Part shown: positions 2,990 to 55,376 of the stretch, piece by piece
Layout: every line of letters starts with the position of its first letter
Position numbering within the stretch: the first letter of the stretch is position 1
NCBI RefSeq assembly: GCF_036588685.1
Contig: NC_086381.1
Location: forward strand, 15,314,001-15,378,000
Direction: 5' to 3'
DNA length: 64,000 nucleotides
Origin: Mytilus trossulus
Lineage: Eukaryota
The notes under the pieces: model-generated
Told to the model about the DNA's origin: nothing
The model's database searches: none
Seen by the model: the letters and a program-made list of their open reading frames with translations, nothing else
Program-made: the position numbers and the translations under genes

Positions 2990-3060
2990 GTATGAAATTT
3001 AAAACCCGCAAGGGTCCATAATTGGATTAATAAAGTATTCTTATTCTTATTCTTATTCTT
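2990..3060 (+). mobile_element. probable 3' tail of a non-LTR retroelement: AATAAA plus (TATTCT)4
   Basis: ttaataaag is followed by tattct x4 and abuts the nAChR-like reading frame. The 5' extent is not defined. Confidence 0.4.
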
Positions 3061-3954
3061 ATACACGATGTGTGGGTTCCAAAAATAGTAATCGGTAACA
3101 CGGTTGGTTACCATTCATTATATAAAATGGACAATTATTTTGACAGTAAAATGACGTATGTGACATTCACAAACGATGGATCAGCCTTTTTTGAAAGTTC
3201 CGGTGTTTGGCAGACGATATGTAACGTTGACGTCACGGATTTCCCTTTTGATGTCCACGAATGTGATATACTGCTGAAAGCAATGCATCCGTCCATGGAT
3301 GTTAAACTGATGTCAATTACTGATTACGTTCACACTAATTCCACATTAATGCATAGCGAGTTTAAAATACAGAATACTTATATAAAAACAGGACAACTAA
3401 ATGCAAATGACACTTGGTCCATGCTAGCCTATACAATCAATTTAGGTCGAAGACCGCTTTTCATGACGATGAACCTTGTGGTCCCAGTTTTTCTCATAAG
3501 TTTTGCAAATGTTTTTGTTTTTCTTCTACCATTGGATTCTCCTGATCGAGTTGGATATGCTGTTACAATGGTCCTCACCTTCACGGTCTTTATGACTATG
3601 GTCTCTGAACTACTTCCGGCTACGGACCCATTATCAAATTTCAACATACTGTTACTACTACAATTAGCTTTCAGTACTGTCGTTACTTTGGGTGTGTTGT
3701 TAGTCCATTTCATTTACAACAAAAATCCTTCAGACAACGTTCCGCATTGTCTACGATACGTATGCTTACGAAAAACAAACCAACAAGAGGATCCTATCTG
3801 CATAAAAGGTAAAGAAAAACCGTATCCATGGAGTGATTGTGACAGCAGAAGTTGGAAACACGTGGCAGGAATAATTAACAAATGCATTTTGTTCGTGTCA
3901 ATTGTCATCATTACAATCGAGATCATTGTTTTCTATAGCTTAATTTGCACATGA
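3061..3954 (+). pseudogene. intronless, 5'-truncated nicotinic acetylcholine receptor-like Cys-loop channel subunit (non-alpha); could instead be the last exon of a gene starting outside the window
   Basis: WVPKIVIGN (WxPD-like), Cys-loop CNVDVTDFPFDVHEC, pre-M1 RRPLF, M1-M3 (M2 DRVGYAVTMVLTFTVFMTMVSE), and M4 after WKHVAGIINK. There is no vicinal CC in loop C and no signal peptide or N-terminal part of the ligand-binding domain. An in-frame TAA lies at 3031-3033 and no convincing splice acceptor precedes the frame. AATAAA follows at 3956. Confidence 0.75.
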
Positions 3955-5703
3955 GAATAAAAGCTTATAAACATTATGTTTATTGACTTGATGAACCGAT
4001 AAATCGGAATCTCTGCGCCGCATTCTGTCATTTGTAATTTACATTTGCTGTATTCCAATTTCCGTATAATTTTCTTGTTTGCGCATGGTACGTTTCTAAT
4101 TTGCCACTGTTTTTTTTCTAAATAATTAAAGATCGTTTTTAAACTGGTTATTTCCTGTTTTTGTTTTTGTTTTGGTGCATTTGATTTGGTTCTATAAAAA
4201 AGATTTAGTGTGTACAACAAATTTAATATTCAAGACTTTTCGGCGTACTGGACAGTTACAAAAGACGTTTGGTAGGGGACAATGTGGCTCCCCCCCCCCC
4301 CCCCCCGAACGTTTGTAATTCATTAAGGTTTTATGTTCACAAAAAATACAAGAACTATTTACAAAAACGCTTTTCAAATTATTCAGCTATAAATTAAAAT
4401 TTTATATTACTCGAAAGTCCTGTATATTAGCTTCTGTTGAAAAAAGAAAAGTTAAACGATATATATAGTTTCCAATATGAAAATAAAACATATGCTTTTA
4501 AAAAAGAATCAACTATTTTTTGTTACGAATAGTCGCACAAATAACAAGGTATATGATTTCCAATGACACGGCTATTCACTGGAGACCAAATAACGTTAAA
4601 GTAAGCAACTATAGGCCACACACATTCCATCAGTAAACAGATAATATACGAGACAGAGAAATTTTAAGATATTTTCCAACATTACACCTATCAAAACTGA
4701 AACATTTCAGCAAGACCAAATCTTAAGAGGGCGAGCAAATGAGCATATCTCGTGGTTAAACTATGATTTTTAATACTCAACAACTCATTCTCAGTCTGGC
4801 ATACAACAACATAAACATAGAAAAAAATACTTGGTTGTATTGATCATTAGTCCTTCGGATTCTGATTTCCATTCTCTTTTGTAAGGTATACGTATGACCT
4901 GTTTACACCTTTGAGAACCTGCTTTGGTGACTGTTGGTACAAGTATAAATAGTTACTTTTTCATAGGTTGCACAATGCCATGTTTTCTCTGACTGTTAAT
5001 GAAGTGTTGTAGTGTTACACATCTGTCCCAGGTTAAAGGGATGGTTTGGCACAAGAAAAAGATGTTATCACTTTGGTGGATAGTTGTCTCATTGGCAATC
5101 ATACCATATTTCCGCATCTTTATATTAACCCTGCTACAGTATGAATGTGCCTGTAACAAGCCATGTAATTTAGTTGCTGTTCTTTGTTGCTGTTTTTATA
5201 TTTTTTCAATCATTTTTGTCCATAAATCAGGCCGTTAGATGTCTCGTTTGATTGCTTTTGATAAATGTCCTTTCGGGGTCTTTTAAAACTGACCATGTGG
5301 TATGGGTTTTACTCCATGCTGAAGACCATACGGTGACCTGTTGTTGCAAACTTCTATGTTCTATCGTTTTTGATAAAGAGTTGGTTGTCTCATTTGTAAT
5401 CAATCGATCTAGATCTTATTCAGTATCATTTCTGAAAACATATTGAAAGTACATAATACGGCGACAAAAATAATTATAACACTGTCTGAACGGTTTCTAA
5501 CATAATATTAAACGAAATAAGTTATGCCATCAAATATTGAATGATGTGCTTCAGATTTTATTACAAAACACACACAAAAACGAACGTAGTCAACATTACA
5601 GATAAATCGATATACACATGTAATAATAAAAATAATTTGTTTTGGAATATCAAATTCGTATGAGTATCAATGTTTTACAAGGTGTGCTAAAGTGAATTTC
5701 TGT

Positions 5704-8495
5704 TCAAAGATACACATTATTAATCAGTATCTGGATGACAAGTATGTAAATTAAACACCAAGAGAAATTTTGGACGTGGTAGGAAGTTGCATGGTTAAAG
5801 TTGTCGGTAGCAGAATATCCTGATGCAGGAGAAATAGCTATGTCGGCGCATCCATAAAACTGTTCCTGGGGACCGCATCCAATACAACAGTTGTTATCTT
5901 TATCACAGCCGTACGAATTACCTGTAATAATAATAAAAAATAATATGTCAGATGCCCATAAACTAAATTTATTGAAATAAGAATGTAATTGAGATGTTTC
6001 GAGGGACCTGGATGGCTGAGTTCGGAAAACTTATTATTTTAGTTAATTTTCTAAATCCAAGGACTATAACTCTGCATAAACTCATCAGACCGGAACAACA
6101 TTCGAACTTGATCTGTCAATTGTCATGATGAAACAAATTAACAATACTTCAAAAATCAAATCAATATCTTCAAGAAGAAAAATGGTGTCGAAAACTGATT
6201 TGCCGGACTGAAGGTTGGACAGACAAGACAGACAGTCACAGACAGACCGACAGACAGACAGACAGACGGACGGAGTGCAAACAAGTTAAGTCGCTTTAGA
6301 TTTCGTCGGTAGACTGGGGGACTAATAATCTAGCCTATTGGAAACTGAAAATGAATAATCTTTTCAAACACTGAATGAAAATGAATACTCTGCAATGCTA
6401 TGGAATACAACCATTTGCAGCACATACTTTGTGTAGAAATAAGGAAAATTACCAAAGATGTAAATTAACCCCCCCCCCCCCCCCCCCTCCCCCCGAAATG
6501 TCTATCCTGTTGAATTGTGAATGAGATAATACTGCTAGTAAATGTAAAAATATATTGAAATACAAATTGTATGCACTATTTTAGTGGAGATATTGACATG
6601 ACATTTTTCATTTCAAAATATCTGCAATGTCACGTGATAATGACTTTGTAATATACGTTTTACCTGTATTCCATATCCATTGTAGCACACATTGTGTACA
6701 TGATACATCTCGAGGAAGAACAAGTGTTACTGCATATGTCCCAACAGCGCCAGGCTCATCAAATTTTGTTTGCCCGTTTGGTTGCTGGAGTATATGTGCA
6801 TCAAAGCATGATTGAGTGGCGCGGACACTCGGGTTATTAACAGGACAAATACGAAATTCGTGAAAACCTTTATGAGAAGCTGTTATTTCTAGTTTCACTT
6901 CCATTGTGTTTCCGGCACTATAATTTCCTGCTATAGTGCCAGTCGCATATTTTCCTCCAGCCTCGTTCTCACGTTTTTCGTCCCAGGGATCACCACATAG
7001 TCCACACTTTCCTTTGTTTAAAGTCCATTGTTTCTGAAAGTACCATTTTATGTAAATTTATACGTTAAACTTTTGCTTAAATTACAATGCAGTTGGTTCA
7101 TTTAAAATTGTTATAAAGACCGCCAAATGTTTTGGCTCTATTCATCTCATACGGTAATATCCTTCCGAATTATTTAAGATACTGTGTTTCTTGGTTGCCA
7201 AATTTTGTATTACAGTTTTAGTACTTAACAGCCGAAACTCGGACATTTTATTGAAACATTTACTATAATAGGGGTTGGTATCTAAAAAACTTCATTTAAC
7301 CTAGTATTTATTTTAAAAGGCTGTTTCAAAGTAAAAAAATACTACAGTTGTTTTCCATTCGGGTCTTTGGATGATACAGTCTAACGTTTGATTGTGGCAG
7401 GGTTTATAGACCTCCCCCTTTTTGAATTAACCTCTGAATCGATATTTTTATTAATATTTATTTGCATTCATTAACGACTTATAGAGCCAACAAGTTATTT
7501 AGGCTAACGATATTCTGCATTAAAATGAAATATCGCGGGAAATACCCAAATATCAAGATACGTTTTTATCTGTAAACGTTTCGAGCTACCGAAGAGAGAC
7601 ACAGGGATAGATAACTGATGTCGTGTTGTCGTCGTCCGCGTCAAAATTTGCTTTAAAAATTAATTCATAAAAGTCATAGATTTATTAATATGTTCACAAG
7701 GCCTTGGTTGTTACACATTTGAAGTTAATTCCGAAAATTATCGATTTAATTATAAAAAAAAACAAAATATTATACATGTAGCTTTAAGACTTTATGAAGA
7801 TGACATCAAATCTTTGGCTTGCATGACTTATTTAGATTCTATTTGCCCAACTATGGAAACATAAACAAAAACAAATAAAAAATTGTGTTTCGATGTTCTT
7901 CATTGGGTTTTGTAACACATAATTCTAATTTCATATTCAGAAATAATCTATTAATCGAAACATATTACTACATAAATTATTCAAACAAAGAAAATAAATC
8001 TTAACGTACAAGTGAAACTCGACTTAAAATCCAGTATAACGATGACTTATTATTTTTTACACTACAGGCAACACCTCACAGTTACAAACCTTAAACACAA
8101 AAGTTAGTATCTATAGGTTTATATACCGTGGCAGGGAGGATTTTGAGAAAGATTGACAATGCTAACATTGACGTGTGTTTGGTGTTTCAAACAGTGAATT
8201 TTGGCTTTGCCAAATTTTACGTCGCTATAAAACTACAGAAAGAATCACTGAATAACAAAAATTAAATGCTAAATTAAAAAAAATGAAATATAGAATAGAC
8301 AACCAGAGATATATCAAGTATACATACGTAAAAGCCGCCACATGAAACTTGGTTGTCGTTATAATTCTTAGGAGTGTTATATCCAAGCCGCCACATGGTG
8401 GATCTACCGGGAGGTAAAATAAGTCTTCCATGCCCATAAGTACAGGCAAATAACGATGCTAGAGTAAAAATTGTGATCATCATTCTGCTCCACAT
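5704..8495 (-). CDS. LPMO1: AA15-family lytic polysaccharide monooxygenase (chitin-binding type-4 fold), ~251 aa, with hydrophobic C-terminal tail; exons 8495-8328, 7033-6664, 5921-5704
   Basis: GT-AG introns in phases 0 and 1. Signal peptide MWSRMMITIFTLASLFACTYG, then His1 (HGRLILPPGRSTMWR), CGGF, GKCGLCGDPW, EAGGKY, TASHKGFHEFRIC, CVLQWIWNTGN and CGPQEQFYGCADI. Ends FSWCLIYILVIQILINNVYL*. Minus-strand AATAAA at 5557-5562. Confidence 0.92.
5978..6328 (-). mobile_element. Helentron/HINE-like non-autonomous element with (GACA)n microsatellite, in the last intron of LPMO1
   Basis: Core ataactct..gaacttgatctg, a gaca/gacg microsatellite at ~6215-6273, and the end ggggactaataa. This layout is typical of bivalve HINEs. 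Boundaries are approximate. Confidence 0.55.
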
Positions 8496-9825
8496 AAACT
8501 GCATATGAAAAAACAAAATAGAAGATAACTTATGTATTTGAAATAGATTTAAGTGGGGCTCAAACACTGAGTTTAACTGAAATAGTAAATTATTCAACTT
8601 GAACATGACTACATCGGTATGGTTATGGTATTTTCTTTTCCTTAAATTACACGCACTATCTTGTTCATAAAAAAATAATAATTTCATACAATGAAAGGGA
8701 TATGACAAAGGAATAAAGCAAATGATACAAGCAAACAACATCCCCACTGTCAAACAAAAATTGTTAAGCTTATGAATTGTATACCATTTTTTAATGGACA
8801 AGTCATTTCCACGGGTGTCATTCTGTTTATCGAGAGAAATGAGCGTGAAAGAATATCTAACGGCGGTCAAGTATTGAGCGACGATCGTGAAAGTTCTGGT
8901 AACAGATCGTGAAAGACATTTAATCGAGAAGAAATATAAAAGGTCAATACATATTATAATTTTATTAATTACACAGACAAATTTACGACAAAATAAAACT
9001 GTCTGTCAAAATGGTTCAACATTATGATTAGTATGTGAGAATATCGAGTTTTAAAAGTACATAGTTATTACAAAACAACAAAAGGCAGATTGCTTCTCGA
9101 CATTTCAATGACATAAAAAATGTAAACAAACATGATTTTTTTCACGAATTCGACTAGAAAACCTAGTTTAATACGAATAAGGGCATTCTATTTGAATTAA
9201 TCAAATGGTTCTCATAGTTATTTTGCATAAACATAATCTGAAACTTGGTAAATAAAGAACTATTTACACAAAAATGGATTTTTTGGATCGTGAAAGATCA
9301 CGTACCGTATTTTTGAAGATCGTGAAAAGGATCGCGAAAGATCCGATGCTACGAAGACGTTCAAATTATTCTTCAATTATATCATAGTTAATATTTGTTA
9401 TTGGTATTGAGAAAAGCTATATAGTTCAACATCCTCAATAGGTTTAGCTTTTCAAAGTATAAATATTTTCAGAAAATGAAATGTAAAATAGTTGGATGAT
9501 TGTAGGATGAAGCTTTTTATTGTCATGTGAAGTACTCACTTATCACGAGTTATAGGATACCCACATTTGGTATATTGGATCCTATAAACTACATGTCCGC
9601 CAGACAGGATTCACCTGACCCCGAATTTGCCTTATTTCATGGATGAAGATTCATTTTTGTGGTCAAGTCCGTATCGCGGATTCGTTAAGCTTTAGGATAA
9701 GTGTCTGTTGTTATGATTGTGAGGTGTACATTTTCGACTTCTGCAAGGTTTCAACTGAAATTGAACCCATTGTCATACATCATTCGTCAATGCTCGTTTT
9801 ATGTTGTCTAGCCTTTGGATATATA

Positions 9826-18743: not shown

Positions 18744-20528
18744 TTAATGTTTTCTACAAGCATCCGTGCAGTATGTACTTGGTGGACATTTATTCTGGTT
18801 GCATAGAGAAACACAGTATTGGTCGGCATACGGATTACGTCTTTTAAACAGTGGAGTTGCTTTGCATGTACCAATAGCATGTCCTAAAATTGGTAGGAAG
18901 CTAAATGGGCGTCCTTGTTGAACACCGGTACCAGTACCAGAAGACTGACTGGTTCCTGACGATGCAATAGCTATATCTGCACAGCCATAAAACTGTTCTT
19001 GTGGTCCGCAGCCAATACAACATTTATGGTTGTTATCACAATTATATGAATTCCCTGTAAAATATTAGTTAAAATTTGAATTCCAATTTATCCTATTATT
19101 TTAATAAAAATGTACAACATTGTTCATGATAATTTGTTTTAAAAACCAACCAAAAACAAACCCCTGTGTAACAAATTGACCAAAGGCCTTTCTGTTTTCT
19201 CCTCTTTGGTCGTGTTGTTGTCTCTTTGACGCAATTCCCATTACTATGCTCAATTTTATTACTGCGCTTCGTAACACAGAAATATTGGAAATATACAAAC
19301 CAAAAGTAAAGACTGTTGTTCGTCATTATGATCAGATGCCTATAACGGATAGGTGCATATTGTCCTTATTTGTTCGATTTAAACAGTGAGTTATTAACGA
19401 TTTGAAAAAATAAAAGAAGATATGGTATGATTGGTAATGAAAAAGTCTATTCAAAGACATTTGCTAAAGTTGCATTTTCAAGGTAGTAATATTAGAGAAT
19501 GTCTTACCCGTATTCCATTTCCATTGTAAAACGCACTGCTTGCATGACAACCCTTGAGGGAGTACCAAATGAACTGTATATGTACCAATTGCACCTGGTT
19601 CGTAAAACTTAGTCTGACCACTAGGTTGTTGCAGTACATATCTATCTAGACATGCTTGTGTAGCTGGTTGACGTGGATTATTTACTGGACAAAGACGGAA
19701 CTCAAAGTATCCAAGATGAGTAGCAGTGACTTGGACTTTGACCTCAATTGTCTGTCCTGATTTATAGTGTCCAGTAACAATACCGTTTGCATATTTCCCT
19801 CCAGCCTCGTTATCATGCGCTTCATTCCAAGGGTCTCCACATACTCCACATTTTCCACCATTCACTGCCCATTGTGTCTAAAAATGATGAGTACGTGGTA
19901 CATGTTTTACTTCGTATTTAAAATATATAGATAGCGCACATATGCAAGCATTCATTAACCTATTTATTCAAATTAACAAAAATATTTAAATGTGACATTG
20001 TCTTATTTGTTCTATACAAAAAACAACGAGCGAAATTATAAAAATACTAAATGGCATAGTAATTTTGCCTTATTGGAGGACATGCACATCTAACAACCGG
20101 GTGCCCTTCTCCTACTTCCTAAAACATACCCGTACACAATTTTCATAAAGATATCAAAAGCTTCTATTAAACTCAGTATACCTTTAAAATAGCCGAGTGC
20201 TAATGGTAAACACGGTAACGATCCAAAAAGATATCTTATATAACTCAGGTGCTACATGTATAATAGTTAAACACGATATTAAGCATTTAGTTTGTACTGC
20301 TTAATTATTTCACTCGAATTTTTTTTGGTACTTATTATTGCATACTTTTGATATATTTATCTTGATACTTACATTGAAGCCACCACAATATAATTGGTTG
20401 TCGTTGTAATTTTTAGGTGTTTTGTATCCATAACGCCACATCGTAGATCTACCGGGAGGAGAAACAAGTCTTCCGTGTCCGAACACAGATGCAATTATTG
20501 CTACCAGAACTGTTATTTGCAGCAACAT
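18744..20528 (-). CDS. LPMO2: AA15-family LPMO, ~278 aa, with C-terminal 6-Cys module; exons 20528-20373, 19877-19508, 19054-18744
   Basis: Signal MLLQITVLVAIIASVFG|HGRLVSPPGRSTMWR, then TATHLGYFEFRLC, CVLQWKWNTGN and QEQFYGCADI. Tail CKATPLFKRRNPYADQYCVSLCNQNKCPPSTYCTDACRKH*. GT-AG introns; the middle exon is 370 bp as in all four copies. Confidence 0.93.
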
Positions 20529-27430: not shown

Positions 27431-29156
27431 ATGTTGACACAGATTTATACAGTATGCACATTTGTTGCTGTCGTCAACGGCCACGGCAGACTTATCTCCC
27501 CTCCTGGAAGATCCACAATGTGGCGCTATGGATACAACACACCTAAAAATTACAACGATAACCAGATGTCTTGTGGAGGGTTTTATGTAAGTTGTTATAG
27601 ATATCAAACTATTTTTTAACTAGAAATTAACAAATATTTTAACAAAGAATTTATAAAGTTTATTGCTACAATATATATAAAAGAAAGGTATTCCCTTTTC
27701 AATTATAATAAGAAAAATGTGCATCATTGATAAACTAGTATTATAATAGCTTCTGTATAATGTTTATCATCCTTGTCCTTATACCATGCATTTAATATAA
27801 CAGTATTTCTTTCTTTCAGAAACAATGGACACTAAATGGAGGAAAATGTGGCGTATGTGGTGACCCTTGGAACGAGGCTCATGACAACGAGGCTGGAAGA
27901 AAATATGCAACAGGCACCATTGTTAGTCAATATAACACAGGACAAAATATTCAGGTTAAAGTTCAAATCACTGCTACCCATCGTGGATATTTTGAGTTCC
28001 GTCTTTGCCCGGTTAACAATCCACGTCAGCCAGCCACTCAAGCCTGTCTAGATAGAAATGTACTAAAGCAATCAAATGGACAGTCCAAATTCTATGAACC
28101 AGGAGCAATCGGAACATATACAGTTGATCTTATTCTACCGCAAGGTTTAACCTGTACGCAATGTGTATTACAGTGGAAATGGAATACTGGTAAGATAATC
28201 TGATTGAATTTGTGCACAGTTGTCTGATACATATACATTCACTTTTTAATTTGATAATCACTATGTTACACTCAAAATTGAGAATGTATGTCATTTAAAG
28301 TTTTAACAATATTTTGATATATAAGGTCACATATTCATTAACGCAAAAAGACAGGCTTGAACTCACATGTCTTACAGGTTTTGCCAAATTTTAGTAATTA
28401 TCTATCTCTTTAATATATATGAAGAACAACGTCAATCGATATAAAATGCTATTGGAGCCCATTTTAACGACTCAATTAAAGCATTAGGTATTTATTTGCC
28501 TTTTAATAACGTTATATTTATATATAAGCTTGTATGTGAAACACAAATATCTTTGTCTTAATAATCCACAGCTGGTACATATATATCGATGAAGAGAGAA
28601 TGTTTGCCTTTGTATTATGATATTTTGTTTCTGCAAATTCGGGCTTTTGGGTTTTATTACTATTTTTAAGTATGCAACAATACTTATCAGAAAATATGTA
28701 GAATCATTAATAACACACAGAACTAATTAGTTACGTTATGCTATCAATTACAATTATCTGGCATACTCAATTTTATTTTATAATGTGTTCAGAACAATAG
28801 GATATGAAAATTGTTGTAATACTTTAACAAGTATTTATTTTCTTTTTGCAGGGAATTCATATAACTGTGATAACAATCATAAATGTTGTATTGGTTGTGG
28901 ACCACAAGAACAGTTTTATGGGTGTGCAGATATAGCTATTTCATCGTCTGGGACAAGTCAGTTTTTAAATACTGGTGTTCACCAAGGACGCCCAGTGGGG
29001 TTTTTACCCATTTCAGGACAAAACGTTGGAACATGCCAGGCAACCCCACTGTTCAAAAGTCGTTATAGATATGCCGATCAATATTGTGTATCTCAATGCA
29101 AACAGAACAAATGTCCACCACGCATATACTGCACCGATGCTTGTAGATCTCACTAA
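27431..29156 (+). CDS. LPMO3: AA15-family LPMO, ~276 aa, with C-terminal 6-Cys module; exons 27431-27586, 27820-28189, 28852-29156
   Basis: Signal MLTQIYTVCTFVAVVNG|HGRLISPPGRSTMWR, then TATHRGYFEFRLC, CVLQWKWNTGN and QEQFYGCADI. Tail CQATPLFKSRYRYADQYCVSQCKQNKCPPRIYCTDACRSH*. All splice sites are GT-AG and in frame. Confidence 0.94.
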
Positions 29157-33326: not shown

Positions 33327-35840
33327 ATGGATTGCTCATTTCTTCTGCTTGTGACATTTTGCATAATTAGCAAACTTGCATATGCAGATATATGTGAACT
33401 CAGTGCTTTATTTGCAAACTGCTCAAAACGTGGATTGGCGAAAGTTCCTCAGAATCTGCCGGATTATATTACTAATCTCGAATTATCAGAAAATAACATT
33501 ACAAAGATAGAACCAAATGCATTCAAACAATATGGTAAGCTAGTAGTTTTACACTTAGAACACAACAAAATAAGTATCTTAGACAGTGATGCATTTATGG
33601 GCTTATGCGAATTGAAGGTGCTTTTTCTAACAGGAAATCGATTGGATCATACAAAATATCCGAACAATGTTTTCCGTCCGCTAAAGAACATACAAGAACT
33701 TTATCTGAATCGAAACATGAGACGTGCACCTCCGTCTGAGCAAGAACAAACTTGTAAATATTCCGACACAGCCTTCAGCTGGATGACTTATCTAAAAATT
33801 CTGTCAATTGATCTATGTGGAAGCTCAGATTTTGGCATCGGATTTCTCAAGTTGATACATTTGCAGAATCTTACATTTGATTATTGTCTAGCTTACAATT
33901 TTACTCGACAAACCTTTAGTAATTTTAGAAATTCTAACGTCACTGTGCTGAACCTCAGTCGATGTGAACTGTATGAAATGAGTGAATCTATTGACGCTGG
34001 AATTTTATATCCTTTTTCAAATGTGACAAGTCTGGATTTATCAAACTCATATTTTAGCCTAAAGCACGCCCTGAAGTTTTTGTTGCCATTCCGTAATAAG
34101 AAAATGGATATGATAAATCTTCATCGTGTAAGTCGGAATGATAGAAGCAGTCCAGATAATCCATTCAAAATTGTTATAACAAGTGAAATGATGCAGTTTC
34201 TTAGAACCATCTGTGTGAAAACTCTTATTCTGTCATACAATGGAATTGTAGATGCAAAACCCAACTCATTATTTGTTTTTGATCACCCGGAGTGCTTTGA
34301 AAATATTATAGGATCAGCAAATAGTATTTGGTTGGAATACCCTCTCCAATACATCGAGGTTCAAAAATTATTAAGTACCATGATTAATCTTCGACTATTC
34401 GATTATTCATACGTCCCGCATAAGTTTGCAGAAATGAACTTTATACTCCCGTCAAATTCATTGATCATAAACAATCACATGTTATATACAGATAGAACCC
34501 TAACCAATATAACGTTGTATCTTCCACCTAAACTGGAACATGTACGATTTAGTCATGTAATGGCGGCGTCCAAACTGTTCAGCGTGATAATTAAGAATAC
34601 ACTGGCACTGAAAATTTTAGATTTATCGTATGTTTCCTTCAAAGAATTTCCTGATATTTTCATGCCTGAAGGTAACTTTATAGAACTCCTAGATTTATCA
34701 GGAATAGATTCAAGGTTATATGTTGATAAAGGAGTTACTGAATTAATGGGAGAAGTAAATACTCTCCTCATACGTGATGCCAAATTAGATCTAACATTTA
34801 GAAAACGAAAAAATGTCTTTAAATATTTAAGAAATCGAACAATTAGTATTGATATTTCTCATAATCATCTTTGGGCCCTTCCAAAATCTGTTCGTGTCAT
34901 GACCAATTTAGAACACATTGATTTGTCTTATAACTCATTCCGAAAATTTCCGAAGATATTGACATCGTTATATAATCTCAAAAGAGTAGACCTAAGATTT
35001 AACAAGTTACTAACCTTAGACAAAAAAGTTACACAATGGGCTGACGATGTTTGCAAAACACACAATTTTACATTACTTTTCGTCGGGAATGAATTTGCTT
35101 GTAGCTGTGAAAATCGACACTTTTTGTGGTGGCTTACACAAACCAAGGTTTTATTGGACAGAGACGGGCATTATCATTGTCGATTTCCTAATGGAACAAG
35201 GACAAATATTACTGATGTTATGGAACAATTCCATGATACATTTTCAGATTGCGATGCTATCGTTTGGTTACGTATAGGTGTCATTTGCATCGTTTCGTCC
35301 TTTGTCGTCATTTGTTTATCAGCTATACTTTATCAGTTTAGATGGAGAATGGCATATTTTTTCTATCGAAAACTGAAAATGAACTATGTAATTGAATCGG
35401 ACGATGTTGAATTCAGGTATGACATCTTTGTTGCATATGCATCTGATAGTTGCGAATGGCTTAAAGGTTCATTAATACCGATACTTGAACGAGAATGGAA
35501 ATTGAGTGTTTGTGTGAAAGATCGTGATTTTCCGGTAGGAGAAGACCGAGCAGATACTGTCATCAATAGCATGAGAAATAGTAAATTTATAATTTTTATA
35601 ATTACACCAAAATTTATCAAAAGAAAATGGGGAAAATTCGAAATCGAAATAGCTAAATATGAAATGTTTGAACAAAGAAAACAGAAACACATTATTGTCA
35701 TAATGAAAGACGGCACATCAAAGGAGGACGTTCCTATTGAATTTAGTCTTATATGGAAAGATGTCATAATGATCGAATGGCCAAGCGATGATATGAATAC
35801 CGAAAATGTGTTGTATGATCTAAAGTTACAATTGAGTTGA
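33327..35840 (+). CDS. TLR-A: intronless Toll-like receptor (signal, LRRNT, LRRs, single LRRCT, TM, TIR), 837 aa
   Basis: First ATG at 33327. LRRNT CSKRGLAKVPQNLP, multiple LxxLxLxxN repeats, LRRCT NEFACSC..C..C, TM WLRIGVICIVSSFVVICLSAILY, TIR box1 YDIFVAY and box2 DRDFPVG. AATAAA at 35871. Confidence 0.95.
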   Translation: MDCSFLLLVTFCIISKLAYADICELSALFANCSKRGLAKVPQNLPDYITNLELSENNITKIEPNAFKQYGKLVVLHLEHNKISILDSDAFMGLCELKVLFLTGNRLDHTKYPNNVFRPLKNIQELYLNRNMRRAPPSEQEQTCKYSDTAFSWMTYLKILSIDLCGSSDFGIGFLKLIHLQNLTFDYCLAYNFTRQTFSNFRNSNVTVLNLSRCELYEMSESIDAGILYPFSNVTSLDLSNSYFSLKHALKFLLPFRNKKMDMINLHRVSRNDRSSPDNPFKIVITSEMMQFLRTICVKTLILSYNGIVDAKPNSLFVFDHPECFENIIGSANSIWLEYPLQYIEVQKLLSTMINLRLFDYSYVPHKFAEMNFILPSNSLIINNHMLYTDRTLTNITLYLPPKLEHVRFSHVMAASKLFSVIIKNTLALKILDLSYVSFKEFPDIFMPEGNFIELLDLSGIDSRLYVDKGVTELMGEVNTLLIRDAKLDLTFRKRKNVFKYLRNRTISIDISHNHLWALPKSVRVMTNLEHIDLSYNSFRKFPKILTSLYNLKRVDLRFNKLLTLDKKVTQWADDVCKTHNFTLLFVGNEFACSCENRHFLWWLTQTKVLLDRDGHYHCRFPNGTRTNITDVMEQFHDTFSDCDAIVWLRIGVICIVSSFVVICLSAILYQFRWRMAYFFYRKLKMNYVIESDDVEFRYDIFVAYASDSCEWLKGSLIPILEREWKLSVCVKDRDFPVGEDRADTVINSMRNSKFIIFIITPKFIKRKWGKFEIEIAKYEMFEQRKQKHIIVIMKDGTSKEDVPIEFSLIWKDVIMIEWPSDDMNTENVLYDLKLQLS

Positions 35841-43687: not shown

Positions 43688-46056
43688 ATGTTGACACAGA
43701 TTTATACAGTATGCACATTTATTGCCATGGTCTTCGCGCACGGTAGACTTATATCTCCTCCTGGTAGATCCACAATGTGGCGCTATGGGTACAACACACC
43801 TAAGAATTACAACGATAACCAGATGTCTTGTGGAGGATTTTATGTAAGTCTTCATACACACCTTAGTTTTAATTAACAAAGGTTTCAAGTTGAATCAATG
43901 AAAACATAATGGTGTCTTGTACGACTAGATCTTAGAAACTGAGAACTGTCATTTACATTACAAGAAGGTAATAAATCTGCATCTTTAATATACTCGAGTA
44001 TATGTTTAATTTACTACTTCATAAATGTTTGAAATTTTCATACTTATATCATTTGTTTTTCGTACACATCACAGCGCAAAGCTATGTGTTTCATTCGATT
44101 TGCAAGCTATTTTGAATTAACAAATTCTGTAGACCAGCTAATTGTTAGAGCGATTTATTTTTCGCAAATTTCAGAAGTAAAAAATACAACGCGGATATAA
44201 ATTGTTGCGAGTATGTCATCTAAATAAAATAAATGTGAAAAACGCGAATTTAAAAAACTTTGAAAAAGGCAAGAAATAGCTCAACGCGATATAGTATCCA
44301 AGAAAAAAGTTTGTTTACAGTATAATTTCTGAGAGTCTGCCTCATGATTTTGCTAACGTTCTTTTTTTTTTTATTAAGATTTGAATTGGTACAGGTTTAG
44401 GATAGAAGATATTAAATAAGTACATTAATGATACAGTATGGGTAATTCAAACCCGATAAACAACATAAGCTTCATGTTTACGTAGTTTGTGAATCAAATA
44501 CTGCAAATGATTTTTGAAAAAGATTACATTTGAATGTATCATATTTTTCAGAAACAATGGACACTTAATGGAGGAAAATGTGGCGTATGTGGTGACCCAT
44601 GGAACGAGGCTCATGATAACGAGGCTGGAGGAAAATATGCAACAGGAACCATTGTTAGTCAATACAAGACAGGACAAAACATTCAGGTTAAAGTTCAGAT
44701 CACTGCTACTCATCGTGGATATTTTGAGTTCCGTCTTTGTCCGGTTAACAATCCCCGTCAGCCAGCCACTCAAGCTTGTCTAGATAGGAACCTTCTTAAA
44801 CAACATAATGGTCAGTCGAAGTTCTATGAACCAGGGGCAATCGGAACATATACAGTTGATCTTGTTCTTCCTCAAGGTTTAACATGTACACAGTGTGTAT
44901 TACAGTGGAAATGGAATACTGGTAAGATAAATTTATCTTATTTCAATCTATACAAATTACTAGAGATAAACAATTTTACAACTTTTATTGATTACCATAG
45001 AAATAATATAAAATTGAGAATGGATGGGGAATGTGTCAACCCGACCATAAAGCAGACAACAGGCGAAGTCCACTAGTGGGTCTTCAATGTAGCGAGAAAC
45101 TCAATAAGTATGAAAATAATTTGCATTATTCAGAAAAAATTGTCTCCGTATATCAATGCTGGTCTTTATCCACCTTTAAAAATGAAATGCCACACTTTCC
45201 TTATATATATTGTAGCCTTAAAAGAGGGACGAAAGATACCAGAGGGACAGTCAAACTCATAAATAAAATAAAAAACTGACAATGCCATGGCTAAAAATTA
45301 TCAGGACAAACAGACAAACAATAGTACACGCGACAGAACATCGAAAACTAAAGAATATACAGCACGAACCCCACCAAAAACTAAGGGTGATCTCAGGTGC
45401 TCCGAATGGGTAAGCAGATCCTGTTCCACATGTGGCACGCGTCGTGTTGTTTATGAGTTATCAAATCCGGTAAATAGTCTAATTCGGAAGGACACATTTA
45501 TGAAAGGGCTTAACTGCTCATGTGAAATGATCTAAAATATTGATTCCGGTCAATGTCACATATTTTCAACCATTCACGTAATAGATAATTATTATTGGAT
45601 GTATATATTGAGTTATTCGTATCACCAGGAACTAATAACGTACCTACTTATATCAATTACAATAAGTTTGTCATATGTCTTCTGAACAGTTAAAAGCTTA
45701 CTATGCTTGTTTATTATGTCTATTGTTATCTGATATTATTAACTCTTTCAGGGAACTCATACAACTGTGATAATAACCATAACTGCTGTATTGGTTGTGG
45801 ACCACAAGAACAGTTCTATGGGTGTTCAGATATAGCTATTTTGTCGTCTGGGACAAGTCAGTTTTCTCATACTGGTGTTCAACAAGAACACCCAGTCGGA
45901 TTTTTACCCATTTCAGGACATAATGTTAGAACATGCCAGGCAACCCCACTGTTCAAAAGTCGGTATCCTTATGCAGACAGATATTGTTTATTACAATGCA
46001 ACCAGAATAAATGTCCACCAAGTACATACTGCACTGATGCTTGTAGAATCCACTAA
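43688..46056 (+). CDS. LPMO4: AA15-family LPMO, ~276 aa, with C-terminal 6-Cys module; exons 43688-43843, 44552-44921, 45752-46056
   Basis: Signal MLTQIYTVCTFIAMVFA|HGRL. Exon sizes equal those of LPMO3 (156/370/305). Motifs TATHRGYFEFRLC and QEQFYGCSDI; tail CQATPLFKSRYPYADRYCLLQCNQNKCPPSTYCTDACRIH*. AATAAA at 46180. Confidence 0.94.
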
Positions 46057-48464
46057 ATGTGGACACACTTTACAAAATGTATACTCATTTACTTGCCTTT
46101 TATTTGATACAAACTTTATTTTGTTTACAATGTTTTTATAAATGTATTTATTGTTATTGCATAATTATCGTTTTTTATAAATAAAATCGTTTATTGATAG
46201 ATTTTTTTCCCAAATACAAACAACTAAGTAACGGTCTGCAGAGGTGATAAAGGGCTATGAATTTGACAAAAGTTTAAATGGTAGTAGTAATACACCTATC
46301 AATGAATATATAATGCTGTAAAGAACGTTTTGTAACATTTCCATCGAAATTGATTAAAGTGCCCATATATTTGTAGAAATTGCACAAAAGGAACTAAAAA
46401 ATTAACAGCATGCATGTGTTAATTGTTTAAAGATTTGAATAAAGAAAAAATATTTATAACACATAATTGGGGTGGAAATTGGGGTCTCTCCCAATCATTT
46501 CCTTTTGGGAGGAAATGCTAGTTTCTAATCAAGTGTAATTAATTGAACAATTAAATTCACTTCTCGTCAGTTTTGTGCATTGTATGCATTTTCAACTTGA
46601 TCATGTGCAAAATTTGTTAACATTTAGACTTTCAATAATCACCTCTTCTCTCAAAGTTAATTTGCAATTCGTTAGATGTGTTTTATCATTAAGTTTTGTC
46701 GTTTTGATTTTCCTCGGAGTTCAGTATTTCTGTGATTTTACTTTTTTGTCATCAATGTAGTTATCTTATATTCGACCATAATAACTATTTTACTTTTGAA
46801 TTTACAAATGATAGAAGAATAAGAAAATTTTAAATCTATAGTTAGTTTGTTTTTATATTCAATCCGATGTTGTGTTGCTTAAGTTGTTTTGAGTGGTATA
46901 CAGTCGAATTGTAGGTTAACTTATTTTGTTACAGCTGATCAACAAGATTTCTAATTTACAACCCATCGGGGTTGAAGTGTGTTACTACCTTAAATTGATA
47001 CGGCAATTTTGTGTATAATGAACGTACAATACGTTAATACGATAAAATAAAGAAGCATGAGTAAAGGTCCCGCTTCGGTTCAAACAAAATGCGTTTGTTT
47101 AAATTAAATGTACATGGAATCAGTTGTTCTAACCCGATATAACTCCTATTTGATATTTGAATGAGATTATCACTAGCCGATTTGTCAGATTTATACACGT
47201 ATCTATCTATTTGATACCATCAAAAGCAATATGTATGAAAAAAAATTCGATTAATATACACGTATGCATCAACACTCAAGTACTGCCTTCGATACTGACA
47301 GTTTACTAAGCTAGATTAGTTTTGATAAGAACAAAATAATGAAACATAAATCAACTAACTTATCAAATAATAAAGTGGGTGGGTTTTGATATAGCCTGTC
47401 CGATAAAAAGTTGTGTATCCAAGAGGTATTTGCTTAAATTATTTATCAGGTTAGTAATAAGGAAATCGTTTTATCTCATTTGTTTCCAAACAAGGTTATA
47501 TCTAAATAGTTCAGAGATGGAGAAGGTCAATGCTCTTTAACCTAAGTGTGGTATCTTGTTATTACGGATTTAAATACAGAAAACTCGAAATCTTCTTGCA
47601 TGATGAATTATGTGAAGTCTTTGAACTTCATTGGTTATGTCAAAAGATTCGAACAAGAAAGACAAGATTTCAGTTACTTATGAGTAATGCATATATATTT
47701 AATGGTGCAAAAAGTAAAATCACAAAAATGAACTCCGAGGAAAATTAAAAACCAATCCCTAGTCAAATGTCAAAATAAAAACTCAGACACATAAAACGAA
47801 TGGATAGCAACTGTCATGTTCATGACTTAGTACAAAAAAGGTGGATTGAATATAAAATAAAGAGGTGTGGTATGCTACCTATGAGAAAATTAACCCCTCA
47901 GAAATTGCACATGCAACTAAAAACATTTAAAAAAATCAATGAAAAAATAGAAGAAAGAGAGAAATCAACGAAAAAAATAAATACTAGGCTGCTGGCTTTA
48001 GCTTTTGTGGAAAAGGCGTATAAAGAATGTGATGAGGTTAAACATGTTTAAGATCAGTAAAACCATTTATCCTTTAACCAAGTCTTGCCTAATGGAATTC
48101 TCCTTTATAGCCTCAACTACGACAAACTGAAAAATTAAAAAATCAAACCCAGAAGAACCCTAGTCTAATTCAAATCCATTCAAACTGTCAGGAAATTATT
48201 TGTTGAACTTTTATCATTTTTCTATGTTGTCTTAAAAATGAGATATAGAGAGGAACTGTCTCAACAGGCTAGTTCATATTTTCAAAGTGAATGCTTAGAG
48301 GTAAATATTTGGATGACTGTAATATTTCTTTTTATTTTGGCAGCTTTTGTTTTTATGTCAGAATTCCTTCGTTTGGACATAAATGTTAATTTTGCATGTT
48401 TTGCCAGATGAGCAATTGAGTCCTGAATTATGGAACGCCAACACTGTCTTATTATGCCCATTTT

Positions 48465-49035
48465 TCATTATATGTTGTGCATTTACATTTATATGATGTG
48501 CATTTACCTTTATATGATGTGCACTTGTCATCATATGATGTGCAAACACCTTTATATGATGTGCAAATATCCTTATATGATGTGCGAACATCCTTATATG
48601 ATGTGCAAACATCATAATATGATGTGCAAACATACTTATATGATGCGCATATATACTTATATGATGTGCAAACATCATAATATGATGTGCAAACATACTT
48701 ATATGATGCGCATATATACTTATATGATGTGCAAATGTACGTATATGATGTGCAAACAATCTTATATGATGTGAAAATATACTTATATTATGTTGAAAGA
48801 TCCTTATATGATGTGCAAATATACTTATATGCTGTGCAAATATACCTATATGCTGTGCAAATATACTTATATGATATGTACATATCATTATATGATGTGC
48901 CGTTTCCCTTATATTCTGTGCAAACATCTTTATATGCTGTGCTTGTGTCATTATATTATGTGCTTGTAATCTTATATTATGTGGTTTTATTTACTTCATT
49001 ATATGATGTCGAAACGTCATTATATGATGTGCTTT
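48465..49035 (+). repeat. 21-bp minisatellite array (consensus ~TTATATGATGTGCAAACATAC) in the left TIR
   Basis: tatatgatgtgc recurs every 21 bp. This explains the repetitive HHI/MMCK/YDVQ ORFs in the track. Confidence 0.92.
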
Positions 49036-50714
49036 CATCGTCGTTATGGTCAATGAACATGATTACGATTAGAATGATTACTGTCTAAGTCATAACTGAT
49101 TCCGATCTGCTTCTGCGGAGTAACCGTTACTACTAATTAGGATCAAATCTGTAGCTACCGTTTAGAAAATGGTTGAGACTTGAGATAAACCTTGCCATGT
49201 TAGTACCTCGTTTTAAGATGCAAAAAATCACATCTGATATTGTTGGAAAATTGTAAAAATATATATGAATTGCAAAGTTTGGTTTAAATGACGGGTCTTT
49301 AATAATAAACATATTCATACGAAGTCTACAATACGGTTAAGGTTATTAAATTTAATAGATAATTCTTTTATGTCATGCTCTATGAACGTTTTAACGAGGG
49401 AAGGCATTATATTTGTCAATTTCAGTTTACCTAACGTAAGCATTTTTTCTATATTTTTAAAAGATAATACACGATTTTAAGTATTGTCATTTATGTAAAT
49501 ATTCAATTTGCCTTTCTGATCATTTTAGCTGTTCTTCTATATATTCTCAAGATAGACACAAACAATTGGGAAAAAATGGACTCTGGTAGAGTAATGGTTC
49601 ATATAAGGAACCGGTCATTTGAAAAAAAAAGAGGGGATAGGAAAAAATAAAGGGGGCCTTTCATTTTATCATTTTTGGAATGGAAAAATGACATTCAATT
49701 TTATATAGTTATAAATTTGCCGCGGTATAATGTTATGGCGAATTCTTCGTCAACCGTAGGCATCAATCTTTACGCCTCGTTTCGCTCACCTGAATTGTTA
49801 AAACCTGAAAATTTAGTTTCAACAATTTCTTATCAGAGAATTTTTCGTCTGTAGCTATTATTGAATGAAGGCGTGGTAAAAATTAATAAAACCACAAACG
49901 GCAAATTCAAACTAAGTTCCCTGAAGTCGCAAACAACTTTCATACTTCAGTACTTTGATTATATATGTTCTTGTCTATACCTTGTAAGAAAAGGTGTCTC
50001 TATTATTAGTTATCAAGATAATAGCCAATAAGACAATACAACTCTGAAAAGCAAAAATTGCCCAAAAAGAACCTTTACTATAGAGTATAATTGAGACACA
50101 TTGCACTATTTGTTTTTTTTTTAAATCTATTATGTTTCCAGGGTAAACACAAAATATTAAAATATTAAAAGCCGCTGCCGTAAATCTTCACTTTGAAAAA
50201 TTCAAAACACCACTCTCTATTTGTAAGAGAACAACAGGTCTCAGTAAAAAATAAATAAATGCAGTGTTTTAAGTTCATTTAGACACCAGATTTAAAACGC
50301 TCAATTCTCCGGTTTTGTTGGATAGATACACACCTTCAAAAATTTGAAGGCTGAAATTTCATTGGCTGATGTAATATATACAAGGACAGAAAATAAAATG
50401 ACGTGTTGTCAGATCTCTGTATTCAAAGCTTCAACAGATGATCTGTACATTATATATTAATAAGTAAATGTGGTAGACACCGACTCTAGTTTTAGGGAAG
50501 GAGCACGTGTATTCCTTGTTCGAAATTAATAAACACAAAAAAAAAAACAAAAAAAAACATGGTTTATTTTTTTTTTTAAGTTTCATCATTGTTTTATTTT
50601 TTCCTCATTTTAAATGGAAACAAACTATTTCGCTTCCCTTCTGAAATAGATAAAATCTCTTTCAAGAAATTTAGAATCAAACATTTACAAAACAACTTGC
50701 CCCCCCCCCCTTTT

Positions 50715-52290: not shown

Positions 52291-54439
52291 GCGGGCAAAG
52301 TATTCCGAATTATAAGTACTACCGTGTATCATCGGCACAGCGGATATAGCTTTATAGGTACTTCGAAGCGTGAAAAACTATATACCGTACATTCATTTAA
52401 CTATGCACCGTACAGAAGGATTCATTTGGTCAGCTAAACACAACGCTTCTTGTCGGAATAAAATATCAAAAAATAACTTATGTACAAAATATTTCAATGC
52501 CAATTATTGAAACAGCTATACTTATTACGCACAAACAGTGGCCTTCTATCAGAAAAAGAGTTGCAATGAATATTGAATCATATCGGATGAGACGAGCGCC
52601 AACTTCTTTGACAAGTATGTGCACATATTTTAGTAAGGGTTCTTGTTTTGGGCGATAGTGAGACTTCTCTATTCACCACCCTACGACCAAATCATATCTT
52701 TAAACAACAAATACGTTTAGATTGAAGTACACATTGATATAATGTAAACAAAACAAAGATTTTCGTACCGTGTCAGACGAAAAACCGATCACGCCCCCTT
52801 GGTAAGTACCTATATCCGCTGTACCGATGATACACGTAGATTCCAGCGAGTGGGCAAGTGTTGAAACAAAGAGTGATGACACAGTAATAAGGTGGACACA
52901 GTAATGACAAAGTTAATCCTTTTTATTCTATTTTTGTAAGGAGACGAAAAAGAGGAACAAAATGCAAAAGACGGGCGTCACCCCATTCATCTTTGTTGGA
53001 AAATAAAAATATTAAATAACCTAAATTGGAAAAAGTGTGGCAAAATGTGATTTTCAGTGGGTTTTTTCCCCCTTTTAACTCAATAACTGTATCGTCTACG
53101 TAAAATCCGTTGCCATTATACCGAAAAGGATCAAAATAAGTACCACAATGGGGAAAATCTGATGTAATCGGACGAAAAATTAAATCTAAAACACTTCATC
53201 AGGAATCAACCCCTTGTCTCTCAGAAATCGTTGTCGCTACTCCAAATCTGTCGACATACTAGTACTCATGTTTCAGAATTTTATTAGCAATTAAAAAAAT
53301 CTCCATTAAAATAAGATGAAAATAAACAATCTGTATATGCCAATATGTGCTCATTGTTGAAGACCGTATGGTGACCTATAGTTATTAATTTCTGTGTCAT
53401 TTGGTCTATTGTAGGGAGTTGTCTCTTAGCAAAGATACCACTTTTTCTTTTCTTATAATTACCCACATAGCCATTTCGCATTTCGCGGGCACTACGTCGA
53501 CTAAGCTTGCAATCTTCGAAATTGGATATTTTCTCACATAATTGGCGTTTTCTGTGGTAAAAGATAAGTTCAAAGACAAGTTAAATGTAAAAAACACTAC
53601 ATGTAAACGTCATATCACAAATATTTCCGACTTGGTATGGTTTTAGAGGAGTTGCGGCTCAATGGAATCGGTCTCTTCCTTTAGTGGCATAGATGATATG
53701 ATATACTAGATTAATATCATTGTACATATCCAATACTACATTTTGCATCTTACCATTTACAGATTAATATTATTCAATAACATTTTATGAAACAAACCAT
53801 CTCGCCATATTATTTATCAGTAGATAATTTTATAGCTATTGTTATGAAATATATATTTTTGAAACAGACTGTGATTTCAATCTTGTCTTTTGCAATGAAT
53901 AGAAATAAGCAGATGTGGTATGAGAGACAACTCTCCATCTAAGTTATAATTTGTAAGAGGAAACAATCATATACCTGTATCAAGTCAGGAATATGACAGT
54001 TGTTATCCATTCGTTTGATGTGTTTGGACTTTTGATTTTGCCTTTTGAATTTGGACTTTCCTTTTTGAATTTTCCTCGGAGTTCAGTATTTTTGTGTTTT
54101 TACTTTTTATAGGTCATAGTACGATCTTCAACACGGAGCCTATGCTCAAACTGGATAGCAAGCTATAAAAGGCTCTTACATTTGTTATCATTTTCTCCAC
54201 AGCCGGGAATTTCTTCAACTAGCTCCTGTATTAACTGATCTTAATCTTCAACCGAAATGTTTGAAACGTTGATTTTGTTCAATTGCTTTGTCTCATTTTC
54301 CCTATAAATTGCACATTCTCTAGCGATAGATACATATTTGAGCCGGGTTAATAGTTTACAGAAGCAGATCGGAATCAGTTATGACGTAGACAGTAATCAT
54401 TCTAATCGTAATCATGTTCATTGACCATAACGACGATGA

Positions 54440-54970: not shown

Positions 54971-55376
54971 AATGGTCATAACAAGACAGTGTTGGCGTTC
55001 CATACTGAATGGTTAAATTACTCATCCTTCTACAATGTTCTAAGCTGAACATAACTTTTACTTCTTACGATCACGTCTGAAAATACAATTTTTGTACATA
55101 CAATTTAGAATTGTCTTAAAGCTTTTGCTGGATGCGACTCTAAATTGAAAAAAAATCCACTTCAATATATTGATGTCATATGTATTTCAATCCGTTTAAA
55201 TAAGAGATGAGATTCACCAAAGAGGTGTAGAATAGTAGGATGCAATTATTGTATTTAGATTTGTATTTATTAAATATGTTTAACAAAAACATTTAAGAAA
55301 AGAAATTTAAAGCAACAATGAATTTTAATAGCATCACAGGTCAATTGTCTTTGGTCTATTTTTTTTGCATATTGTA

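What the first reader, a model, noticed from the sequence alone, without database searches (positions are those of the whole stretch)
5704..5850. LPMO1 replaces the Cys-rich module with a GPI-anchor-like tail: a cell-surface LPMO paralogue
Seen: after ..GCADIAI, LPMO1 reads SPASGYSATDNFNHATSYHVQNFSWCLIYILVIQILINNVYL*. This is a small-residue-rich spacer followed by a ~20-aa terminal hydrophobic stretch with no cytoplasmic tail. The other three copies carry a 6-Cys module at the same point of the homologous exon. Established: an N-terminal signal plus omega site, spacer and hydrophobic C-terminus is the GPI-attachment layout. Inference: one membrane-tethered and three secreted LPMOs suggest a division of labour, and a tethered enzyme could share a surface with the TLRs.
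Basis: partly seen in the sequence, partly recalled or inferred. Interest (0 to 1): 0.7.

Follow-up and report, generated by a model that had tools for sequence, protein, structure and literature searches.

The report
Frameshift-born anchor tail on mussel LPMO
One of four neighbouring copper enzymes that likely cut chitin in a mussel ends in a conserved greasy tail predicted to pin it to the cell surface by a GPI lipid anchor; such tethered enzymes are already known, but this tail likely arose when a frameshift re-read the DNA of the cysteine-rich module that its sister copies still make.

Summary
LPMO1 is a spliced 251-aa AA15 LPMO, identical to Mytilus trossulus LOC134685196; transcript contigs of four studies run through the tail and its stop. 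Its 42-aa tail fits the published GPI layout (omega candidate Asn222, hydrophobic run from omega+10) and is kept in five Mytilus species. No GPI predictor or experiment was available, so anchoring is a prediction (about 0.7). Tethered AA15s are not new: GPI-anchored AA15s and insect group II AA15s with a membrane span are in print, 14 of 118 other hits pass my GPI rule, and this genome holds a second hydrophobic-tailed AA15. LPMO1 nests with its 6-Cys paralogues (100/98), and its tail end plus 3'UTR aligns with their module-coding DNA in a shifted frame (5 of 1000 shuffles, 1 of 724 window segments; other tests weaker, two not significant). So the module was likely not swapped out but frameshifted into the anchor signal. 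The proposed link with the TLRs has no support. Verdict: new variant of a known kind, moderate interest.

The parts
8328..8495 (-). LPMO1 coding exon 1: 21-aa signal peptide, His22 (first residue of the mature enzyme)
   Evidence: splice 8328/7033 seen in 4 of 4 runs
6664..7033 (-). LPMO1 coding exon 2: core of the AA15 domain with Ala108 and His110
   Evidence: Pfam LPMO_10 E 8.4e-11; alignment to 5MSZ; residues
5704..5921 (-). LPMO1 coding exon 3: end of the domain (axial Phe201), 42-aa tail, stop
5788..5796 (-). Predicted omega region, Asn222-His223-Ala224 (alternative omega Ala224)
   Evidence: own rule; Asn and Ala kept in all five species; omega residues per PMC2571997; inferred
5707..5766 (-). 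Terminal hydrophobic stretch Phe232-Leu251, no basic residue and no cytoplasmic tail behind it
   Evidence: helix 234-250 in the model
5656..5749 (-). Likely remnant of the 6-Cys module DNA: last 14 tail codons, stop and first ~50 nt of 3'UTR, aligned to the paralogue module in a shifted frame
5557..5562 (-). Poly(A) signal-like hexamer; two contigs end about 30 nt behind it (5525, 5526)
18744..20528 (-). LPMO2, AA15 with one 6-Cys module (contained in M. trossulus LOC134684322)
27431..29156 (+). LPMO3, AA15 with one 6-Cys module (identical to LOC134683622); its module's +1 frame is open and hydrophobic
43688..46056 (+). LPMO4, AA15 with one 6-Cys module; 181 of 188 domain residues identical to LPMO3

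Best explanation
LPMO1 is a transcribed mussel AA15 copper monooxygenase whose conserved hydrophobic tail is predicted to be cut off and exchanged for a GPI anchor, and that tail likely arose by a frameshift of the 6-Cys module DNA after a gene duplication in the mussel lineage. Shown: gene model, splicing, tail, conservation in five Mytilus species, AA15 fold and brace residues, nesting among 6-Cys paralogues. Inferred, from standard GPI biology: the signal peptide takes the protein into the ER and frees His22; the transamidase cleaves after Asn222 (or Ala224); the enzyme then sits on the outer membrane face on a 12-residue linker and oxidises chitin within reach of the cell, while the 6-Cys sister copies are secreted. 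Inferred for the origin: deletions summing to about 25 nt behind the omega region moved the reading into the +1 frame of the module, whose raw translation is already hydrophobic in LPMO3; a new stop then left the rest of the module as 3'UTR.
For: Layout: omega candidate Asn222, Ala at omega+2, polar spacer, hydrophobic run starting at omega+10, matching PMC2571997; the linker 215-231 is low-confidence and unstructured in the model. Conservation: 10 of 10 complete orthologue tails pass my rule; domain 174-182 of 188 and tail 27-37 of 42 identical, the only indel keeps the frame, the stop is equally placed, 0-1 charged residues in the last 20. Transcripts. A plain sum on a translocon scale (values recalled) gives +1.4 to +4.4 for five orthologues, a poor membrane helix, with no basic flank. 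Tree: LPMO1 plus Mytilus 6-Cys copies 100/98; LPMO1 plus older tailed AA15s rejected at p-AU 0.005 on 36 rows. Frameshift: the alignment of exon 3 is colinear with net -25 nt; the 45-nt tail-end block is 28, 29 and 24 of 45 identical to L2, L3, L4 without gaps; read in the old frame LPMO1 gives D**CVSL against DQYCVSL of L2; four-sequence DNA profile reached by 5 of 1000 shuffles and 1 of 724 window segments; Mytilus protein profile 2 of 300 and 8 of 590, best hit in the predicted frame; 5'-anchored global test 17, 49 and 99 of 2000. M. californianus has Gln at omega+1, as L2 and L4 have at the aligned codon.
Against: No GPI or membrane predictor and no experiment; my rule was fitted after seeing the tail and passes about 2% of random AT-rich ends. 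Within the M. edulis group the 3'UTR frame is about as conserved as the tail (P0001), so only M. coruscus and M. californianus add weight; no orthologous exon 3 outside Mytilus was found. Frameshift tests were chosen after I saw the likeness and are not independent; pairwise local scores were reached by 20, 20 and 236 of 1000 shuffles; a non-Mytilus module profile was not significant (155 of 300); the L001 module alone gave its best ungapped match elsewhere (21 of 45); UTR-to-UTR columns already reach 44-56% identity; the codon-position pattern (1/11, 1/5, 5/11 mismatches) has Fisher p 0.15. On 110 rows the AU test did not reject joining LPMO1 to the older tailed group (p 0.07), and joining it to Pinctada P0096, alone or with Pecten P0047, was not rejected (p 0.088, 0.056). 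Three GenBank or assembly-derived proteins lack this tail end: P0003 and P0017 (chimeric models) and P0001 (TGA read as Trp). Activity on chitin was not tested.
Confidence: 0.58

Rival explanations
1. The tail is a true GPI signal but did not come from the module DNA: it is an older tail shared with tailed AA15s of pearl oyster and scallop, or came from unrelated sequence, and the catalytic exons were homogenised with the neighbours by gene conversion.
For: AU tests do not reject LPMO1 + Pinctada P0096 (p 0.088) or + Pecten P0047 (p 0.056); P0096 has a tail of similar length that passes my rule; several frameshift tests are weak.
Against: Old-frame match with stops at the expected place; profile tests 5 of 1000 and 1 of 724; LPMO1 is 100/98 with the Mytilus 6-Cys copies.
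Confidence: 0.17
2. The tail is an uncleaved C-terminal membrane helix, as predicted for insect group II LPMO15-2; the enzyme is tethered but not by GPI.
For: 20 mostly apolar residues, modelled as a helix 234-250; precedent in PMC9156745.
Against: Gln and Asn-Asn inside the stretch, unfavourable summed insertion energy, no basic residue or tail behind it; omega motif at the textbook distance.
Confidence: 0.1
3. The tail is a tolerated by-product of module loss: hydrophobic because AT-rich frames are, with no anchoring role, and the enzyme is secreted or retained in the ER.
For: 58 of 900 non-coding frame ends reach a hydrophobicity of 2.2 and 19 of 900 pass the rule; the +1 frame of the LPMO3 module is as hydrophobic without selection for it (1.82 over 12 residues).
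Against: Frame, length, stop position, Asn-x-Ala and apolar character are kept across five species while 5-15 of 42 residues differ.
Confidence: 0.13
4. The tail is an annotation artefact and the real transcript splices to another last exon.
For: Two GenBank M. edulis models (P0003, P0017) leave the exon early.
Against: 4 of 4 runs have one contig through both joints and the stop; two of four more runs cover tail and stop, one reaches 5748, one covers only the domain part, and no loose end lies at the candidate donors; P0003 continues into the antisense strand of the neighbouring ion-channel gene. Contigs drop rare variants.
Confidence: 0.02

Closest known systems
AA15 LPMO family, TdAA15A (PDB 5MSZ; PMC5823890)
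   Same: E 4.9e-62 by sequence; Foldseek E 8.1e-25, 1.2 A rmsd, 51% identity; signal peptide, His1, second His and the nearby Ala kept.
   Different: Axial residue is Phe, not Tyr (Phe also in AaAA15A, PMC8393829); TdAA15A has no C-terminal extension.
GPI-anchored AA15 in CAZy (PMC8615602) and insect group II LPMO15-2 with a predicted C-terminal membrane span (PMC9156745)
   Same: Signal peptide, AA15 domain and terminal hydrophobic anchor; sister groups with 6-Cys repeats exist there too (group I).
   Different: LPMO1 does not descend from them as far as the tree shows; linker is only about 12 residues; tail appears derived from the 6-Cys module DNA.
Older mollusc AA15 group with hydrophobic tails (21 rows; 17 labelled hydrophobic; bivalves, snails, chiton)
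   Same: Same predicted anchoring; a likely member is in this genome (L037, resembling P0129 by eye).
   Different: Longer tails (65-140 aa), often Cys-rich before the anchor; joining with LPMO1 rejected on 36 rows (p 0.005) but not on 110 rows (p 0.07). The group itself is unresolved in the 36-row tree.
Gain of GPI signals in CEACAM genes (PMC2832619) and C-terminal frameshifts after duplication (PMC8872073)
   Same: A duplicate gains a new C-terminus or a GPI signal through small deletions and a new stop.
   Different: CEACAM signals came from an exon that already coded a membrane helix; here the source would be a soluble disulfide-rich module read in another frame.

Membership tests
AA15 LPMO | Signal peptide leaving an N-terminal His | tested here: met
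   Residues 1-21 hydrophobic leader, His22 aligns with His1 of 5MSZ; cleavage site inferred by homology, no SignalP run
AA15 LPMO | Second brace His and nearby Ala (His91, Ala89 in TdAA15A) | tested here: met
   His110 and Ala108
AA15 LPMO | Axial aromatic residue (Tyr184 or Phe) | tested here: met
   Phe201; Phe occurs in AaAA15A
AA15 LPMO | AA15 fold and family profile | tested here: met
   Pfam LPMO_10; model pLDDT 87 and 5MSZ top hit
AA15 LPMO | Copper-dependent oxidative cleavage of chitin or cellulose | not testable with these tools
   needs an enzyme assay
GPI-anchored protein | N-terminal ER signal | tested here: met
   (by homology)
GPI-anchored protein | Unstructured linker of about 11 residues before omega | tested here: met
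   residues 210-221; no secondary structure, pLDDT under 50 at 215-226
GPI-anchored protein | Omega in C, D, G, N or S with small residues from omega-1 to omega+2 | tested here: inconclusive
   Asn222 and Ala224 fit, but omega-1 is Phe and omega+1 is His here (Gln in M. californianus); Ala224-Thr-Ser is all small but Ala is not in the paper's list
GPI-anchored protein | Spacer omega+3 to +9, then hydrophobic tail from omega+10 to the end | tested here: met
   spacer 225-231, hydrophobic from Phe232
GPI-anchored protein | Positive call by NetGPI, PredGPI or big-PI | not testable with these tools
GPI-anchored protein | Cleavage, glycolipid addition, PI-PLC release | not testable with these tools
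   needs an experiment
Older mollusc hydrophobic-tailed AA15 group | Catalytic domain falls inside that group | tested here: not met
   nests with Mytilus 6-Cys copies 100/98; p-AU 0.005 on 36 rows, 0.07 on 110 rows
Duplicate with C-terminal frameshift | New C-terminus homologous at DNA level to the paralogue's coding DNA in another frame | tested here: inconclusive
   favoured: 5 of 1000, 1 of 724, 2 of 300, 17-99 of 2000; against: 236 of 1000 for L4, 155 of 300 for non-Mytilus profile

The most novel reading that the evidence does not exclude
A working GPI-attachment signal was born from the out-of-frame reading of a soluble disulfide-rich module: the 6-Cys module of bivalve AA15s carries a latent hydrophobic +1 frame, so a short deletion turns a secreted chitin oxidase into a cell-surface one. 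Mussels would then hold two independently made tethered LPMOs, and the tailed copies beside 6-Cys clusters in pearl oyster and scallop may be repeats of the same route.
Probability: 0.45. Interest if true: 0.62.

Novelty: new variant of a known kind. Interest (0 to 1): 0.42.

Why it matters
If right, it is a traceable case of a targeting signal made from a frameshift, with donor paralogues next door and the dead module still readable in the 3'UTR, so the steps can be dated and tested. It also says that mussels gained a surface-bound AA15 twice, which points to a repeated need for chitin oxidation at the cell membrane (shell, gut lining or defence; tissue unknown). The bare fact of an anchored AA15 is ordinary.

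Tried and rejected
Plus-strand frames over 5500-5900 hold nothing like the peptide. Single-sequence fold failed (pLDDT 40); the 67-sequence fold worked. Looking for an orthologous exon 3 outside Mytilus failed: 3 hits, none with the tail; 36 metagenome loci, none an LPMO1 orthologue. Three Logan proteins (P0265, P0299, P0300) group with LPMO1 on exon 2 (99/96) but have no exon 3, so the age of the tail is open. P0001's long tail is TGA read as Trp at both places where the window has TGA, so not a natural read-through. Protein-level alignment of the tails is meaningless and was dropped. Pairwise protein test of the tail against nine paralogue frames: best was L3 frame +1, reached by 29 of 500 shuffles. 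Two AU tests on 110 rows did not finish and were rerun on 36 rows. Of 19 genome matches outside the window, 14 stretches were fetched; 7 held the domain-end exon; 1 of 7 ends hydrophobic and it fails my omega rule. No complex prediction with the TLRs was run: neighbourhood alone gives no reason. Contig depth was not used to compare expression. Three look-ups in earlier scan findings returned nothing. Ten paper searches showed no paper on Mytilus AA15 tails or on a GPI signal from a frameshifted soluble module; the library lacks most subscription papers.

Full report
Observation. The peptide is on the minus strand. Splicing exons 8495-8328, 7033-6664 and 5921-5704 gives 251 aa, identical to P0016, named by its source Mytilus trossulus LOC134685196. 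The domain ends at residue 209; a 42-aa tail follows with one Cys and a best 15-residue hydropathy mean of 2.46. The three other copies in the window have 71-73-aa tails with six Cys in the same exon. Domain identity of LPMO1 to them is 132-138 of 188, against 158-181 among themselves.

Is it the real last exon? In 4 of 4 runs laid (four studies; one on record as RNA, two guessed, one unknown) one contig crosses both introns as modelled and runs past the stop, two of them to 5525-5526, about 30 nt behind an AATAAA at 5562. Four more runs from two other coded organisms all show the exon 2-3 joint; two cover tail and stop, one reaches 5748, one only the domain part. Contigs drop rare variants, so a minor isoform is not excluded. 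Two GenBank M. edulis models that leave the exon early are chimeras; one runs on into the antisense strand of the neighbouring ion-channel gene.

Family. Exon 2 hits Pfam LPMO_10. The only solved relative by sequence is TdAA15A, 5MSZ (E 4.9e-62), also the top fold match (1.2 A) for a model of mean pLDDT 87. His22, Ala108, His110 and Phe201 correspond to His1, Ala89, His91 and Tyr184 (passages of PMC5823890). An axial Phe was suggested to go with chitin degradation (one passage of PMC8393829). Activity is inferred, not shown.

GPI layout. PMC2571997 (passages) gives: linker of about 11 residues, small residues around omega (C, D, G, N, S), spacer omega+3 to +9, hydrophobic tail from omega+10. 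With omega at Asn222 the linker is 12 residues, omega+2 is Ala and the hydrophobic run starts at Phe232, omega+10; omega-1 (Phe) and omega+1 (His) are not small. No predictor was at hand, so I wrote a rule after seeing the tail. It passes 10 of 10 complete orthologue tails (P0003, P0017, P0001 and two exon-2 fragments left out), none of the four other proteins checked beside them (three 6-Cys paralogues and Pecten P0047), and about 2% of three nulls: 19 of 900, 99 of 5000, 103 of 5000. Across M. trossulus, edulis, galloprovincialis, coruscus and californianus the tail keeps 27-37 of 42 residues, the one indel is in frame and upstream of Asn222, and Asn-x-Ala and the stop distance are invariant. 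Within the edulis group the UTR is about as conserved, so only the last two species count. A plain insertion-energy sum (recalled scale) is unfavourable and there is no basic flank, which suits a GPI signal better than a permanent helix.

Is a tethered AA15 new? No. PMC8615602 lists GPI anchors in AA15 (passages); PMC9156745 describes insect group II with a predicted C-terminal membrane span and group I with 6-Cys repeats (passages). Among 119 other hits, 118 had the domain end and 14 pass my rule; among 137 new hits, 4 of 131 pass. Most of the tailed mollusc proteins form one group of 21 rows in the 110-row tree (SH-aLRT 91), unresolved in the 36-row tree. The window's own genome has at least 23 exon-2 matches; of 14 stretches fetched, 7 showed the last exon, and one on another chromosome ends in a hydrophobic run (2.66; fails my omega rule) and resembles that group by eye.

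Origin of this tail. On the catalytic domain LPMO1 groups with the Mytilus 6-Cys copies (97; 100/98). Forcing it with the older tailed group is rejected on 36 rows (p-AU 0.005) but not on 110 rows (0.07); forcing it with Pinctada P0096, or with P0096 and Pecten P0047, is not rejected (0.088, 0.056). The DNA of exon 3 aligns along its length with the paralogues, in frame through the omega region and then with gaps summing to 25 nt, a +1 shift. The last 14 tail codons match the module DNA without gaps at 28, 29 and 24 of 45 bases. In the new frame LPMO3's module reads VIDMPINIVYL against VIQILINNVYL; in the old frame LPMO1 reads D**CVSL against DQYCVSL, and traces run on into the UTR. Tests: four-sequence DNA profile 5 of 1000 shuffles and 1 of 724 window segments; Mytilus protein profile 2 of 300 and 8 of 590; anchored global score 17, 49, 99 of 2000 as more of the linker is skipped; pairwise 20, 20, 236 of 1000. 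Not significant: non-Mytilus profile 155 of 300, codon-position skew p 0.15; the outgroup module L001 alone matched best elsewhere. The tests were chosen after I saw the likeness and share data, so I put the frameshift origin at about 0.7. The raw +1 frame is already hydrophobic in LPMO3 (1.82 over 12 residues, LPMO1 1.79), less so in L2 and L4 (0.58, 1.03). Three unnamed exon-2 proteins group with LPMO1 (99/96), so the gene lineage is likely older than Mytilus; their last exon was not found.

Mechanism. Likely: ER entry, His22 freed, copper bound, tail exchanged for GPI at Asn222 or Ala224, enzyme held about 12 residues from the membrane, where it would nick chitin that the cell lays down or meets; the sister copies would be secreted and carry the 6-Cys module, whose role is not established here. 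All steps after the sequence anatomy are inference from standard GPI and LPMO biology (my own knowledge plus the papers cited). The TLR genes (33327-35840, 56025-58562; 602 of 845 aligned positions identical) follow LPMO3 and LPMO4, consistent with a tandem duplication; nothing ties them to LPMO1.

Comparison and verdict. C-terminal frameshifts after duplication are known (abstract of PMC8872073), and GPI signals arose repeatedly in CEACAMs from a membrane exon (passages of PMC2832619). A GPI signal from a soluble module read out of frame did not turn up, and no paper on Mytilus AA15 tails or 78 (listings only, apart from the papers named; bioRxiv 10.64898/2026.07.25.740686 was checked by passages and has no AA15 or GPI mention). 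No supplements were read; the CAZy-based lists in the supplements of PMC8615602 could already hold this protein as GPI-annotated. New variant of a known kind; interest 0.42.

Noticed in passing
window 3034-3954 (+): Long exon of a ligand-gated ion-channel subunit (Pfam Neur_chan_LBD and Neur_chan_memb), converging on LPMO1; a GenBank M. edulis model (P0003) fuses a helicase piece, LPMO1 and this gene's antisense strand.
   Followed up: partly
window 33327-35840 and 56025-58562 (+): Two single-exon Toll-like receptor ORFs (837 and 845 aa, 78% DNA identity), each downstream of LPMO3 or LPMO4; looks like a tandem LPMO-TLR duplication.
   Followed up: partly
window 48407-49171 and 54314-55026: Two inverted copies (81% alike) of an imperfect tandem repeat, open in several frames, flanking about 5 kb before the second TLR.
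   Followed up: no
L037 (G000:C7:54378000-54381500): Second AA15 of this genome with a terminal hydrophobic run, preceded by a Cys-rich stretch; exons 2 and 3 appear fused in one open frame.
   Followed up: partly
P0096 (Pinctada) and P0047 (Pecten): Each is a non-6-Cys copy with a hydrophobic or partly hydrophobic end that sits next to its lineage's 6-Cys copies in the 110-row tree; possible repeats of the same switch.
   Followed up: partly
P0265, P0299, P0300: Unnamed exon-2 proteins, 69% identical over the match, sister to the LPMO1 clade (99/96); likely a distant mytilid orthologue whose last exon would date the tail.
   Followed up: partly
window upstream of 8498 (-): LPMO1 contigs carry 27-215 further bases 5' of the first coding exon that do not lie on 5000-9000, so there is at least one non-coding upstream exon; not located.
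   Followed up: no
L051 (G000:C9:15306000-15314000, just left of the window): Broken integrase-like frames on the minus strand, probably a transposon remnant (family label from my own recall).
   Followed up: no
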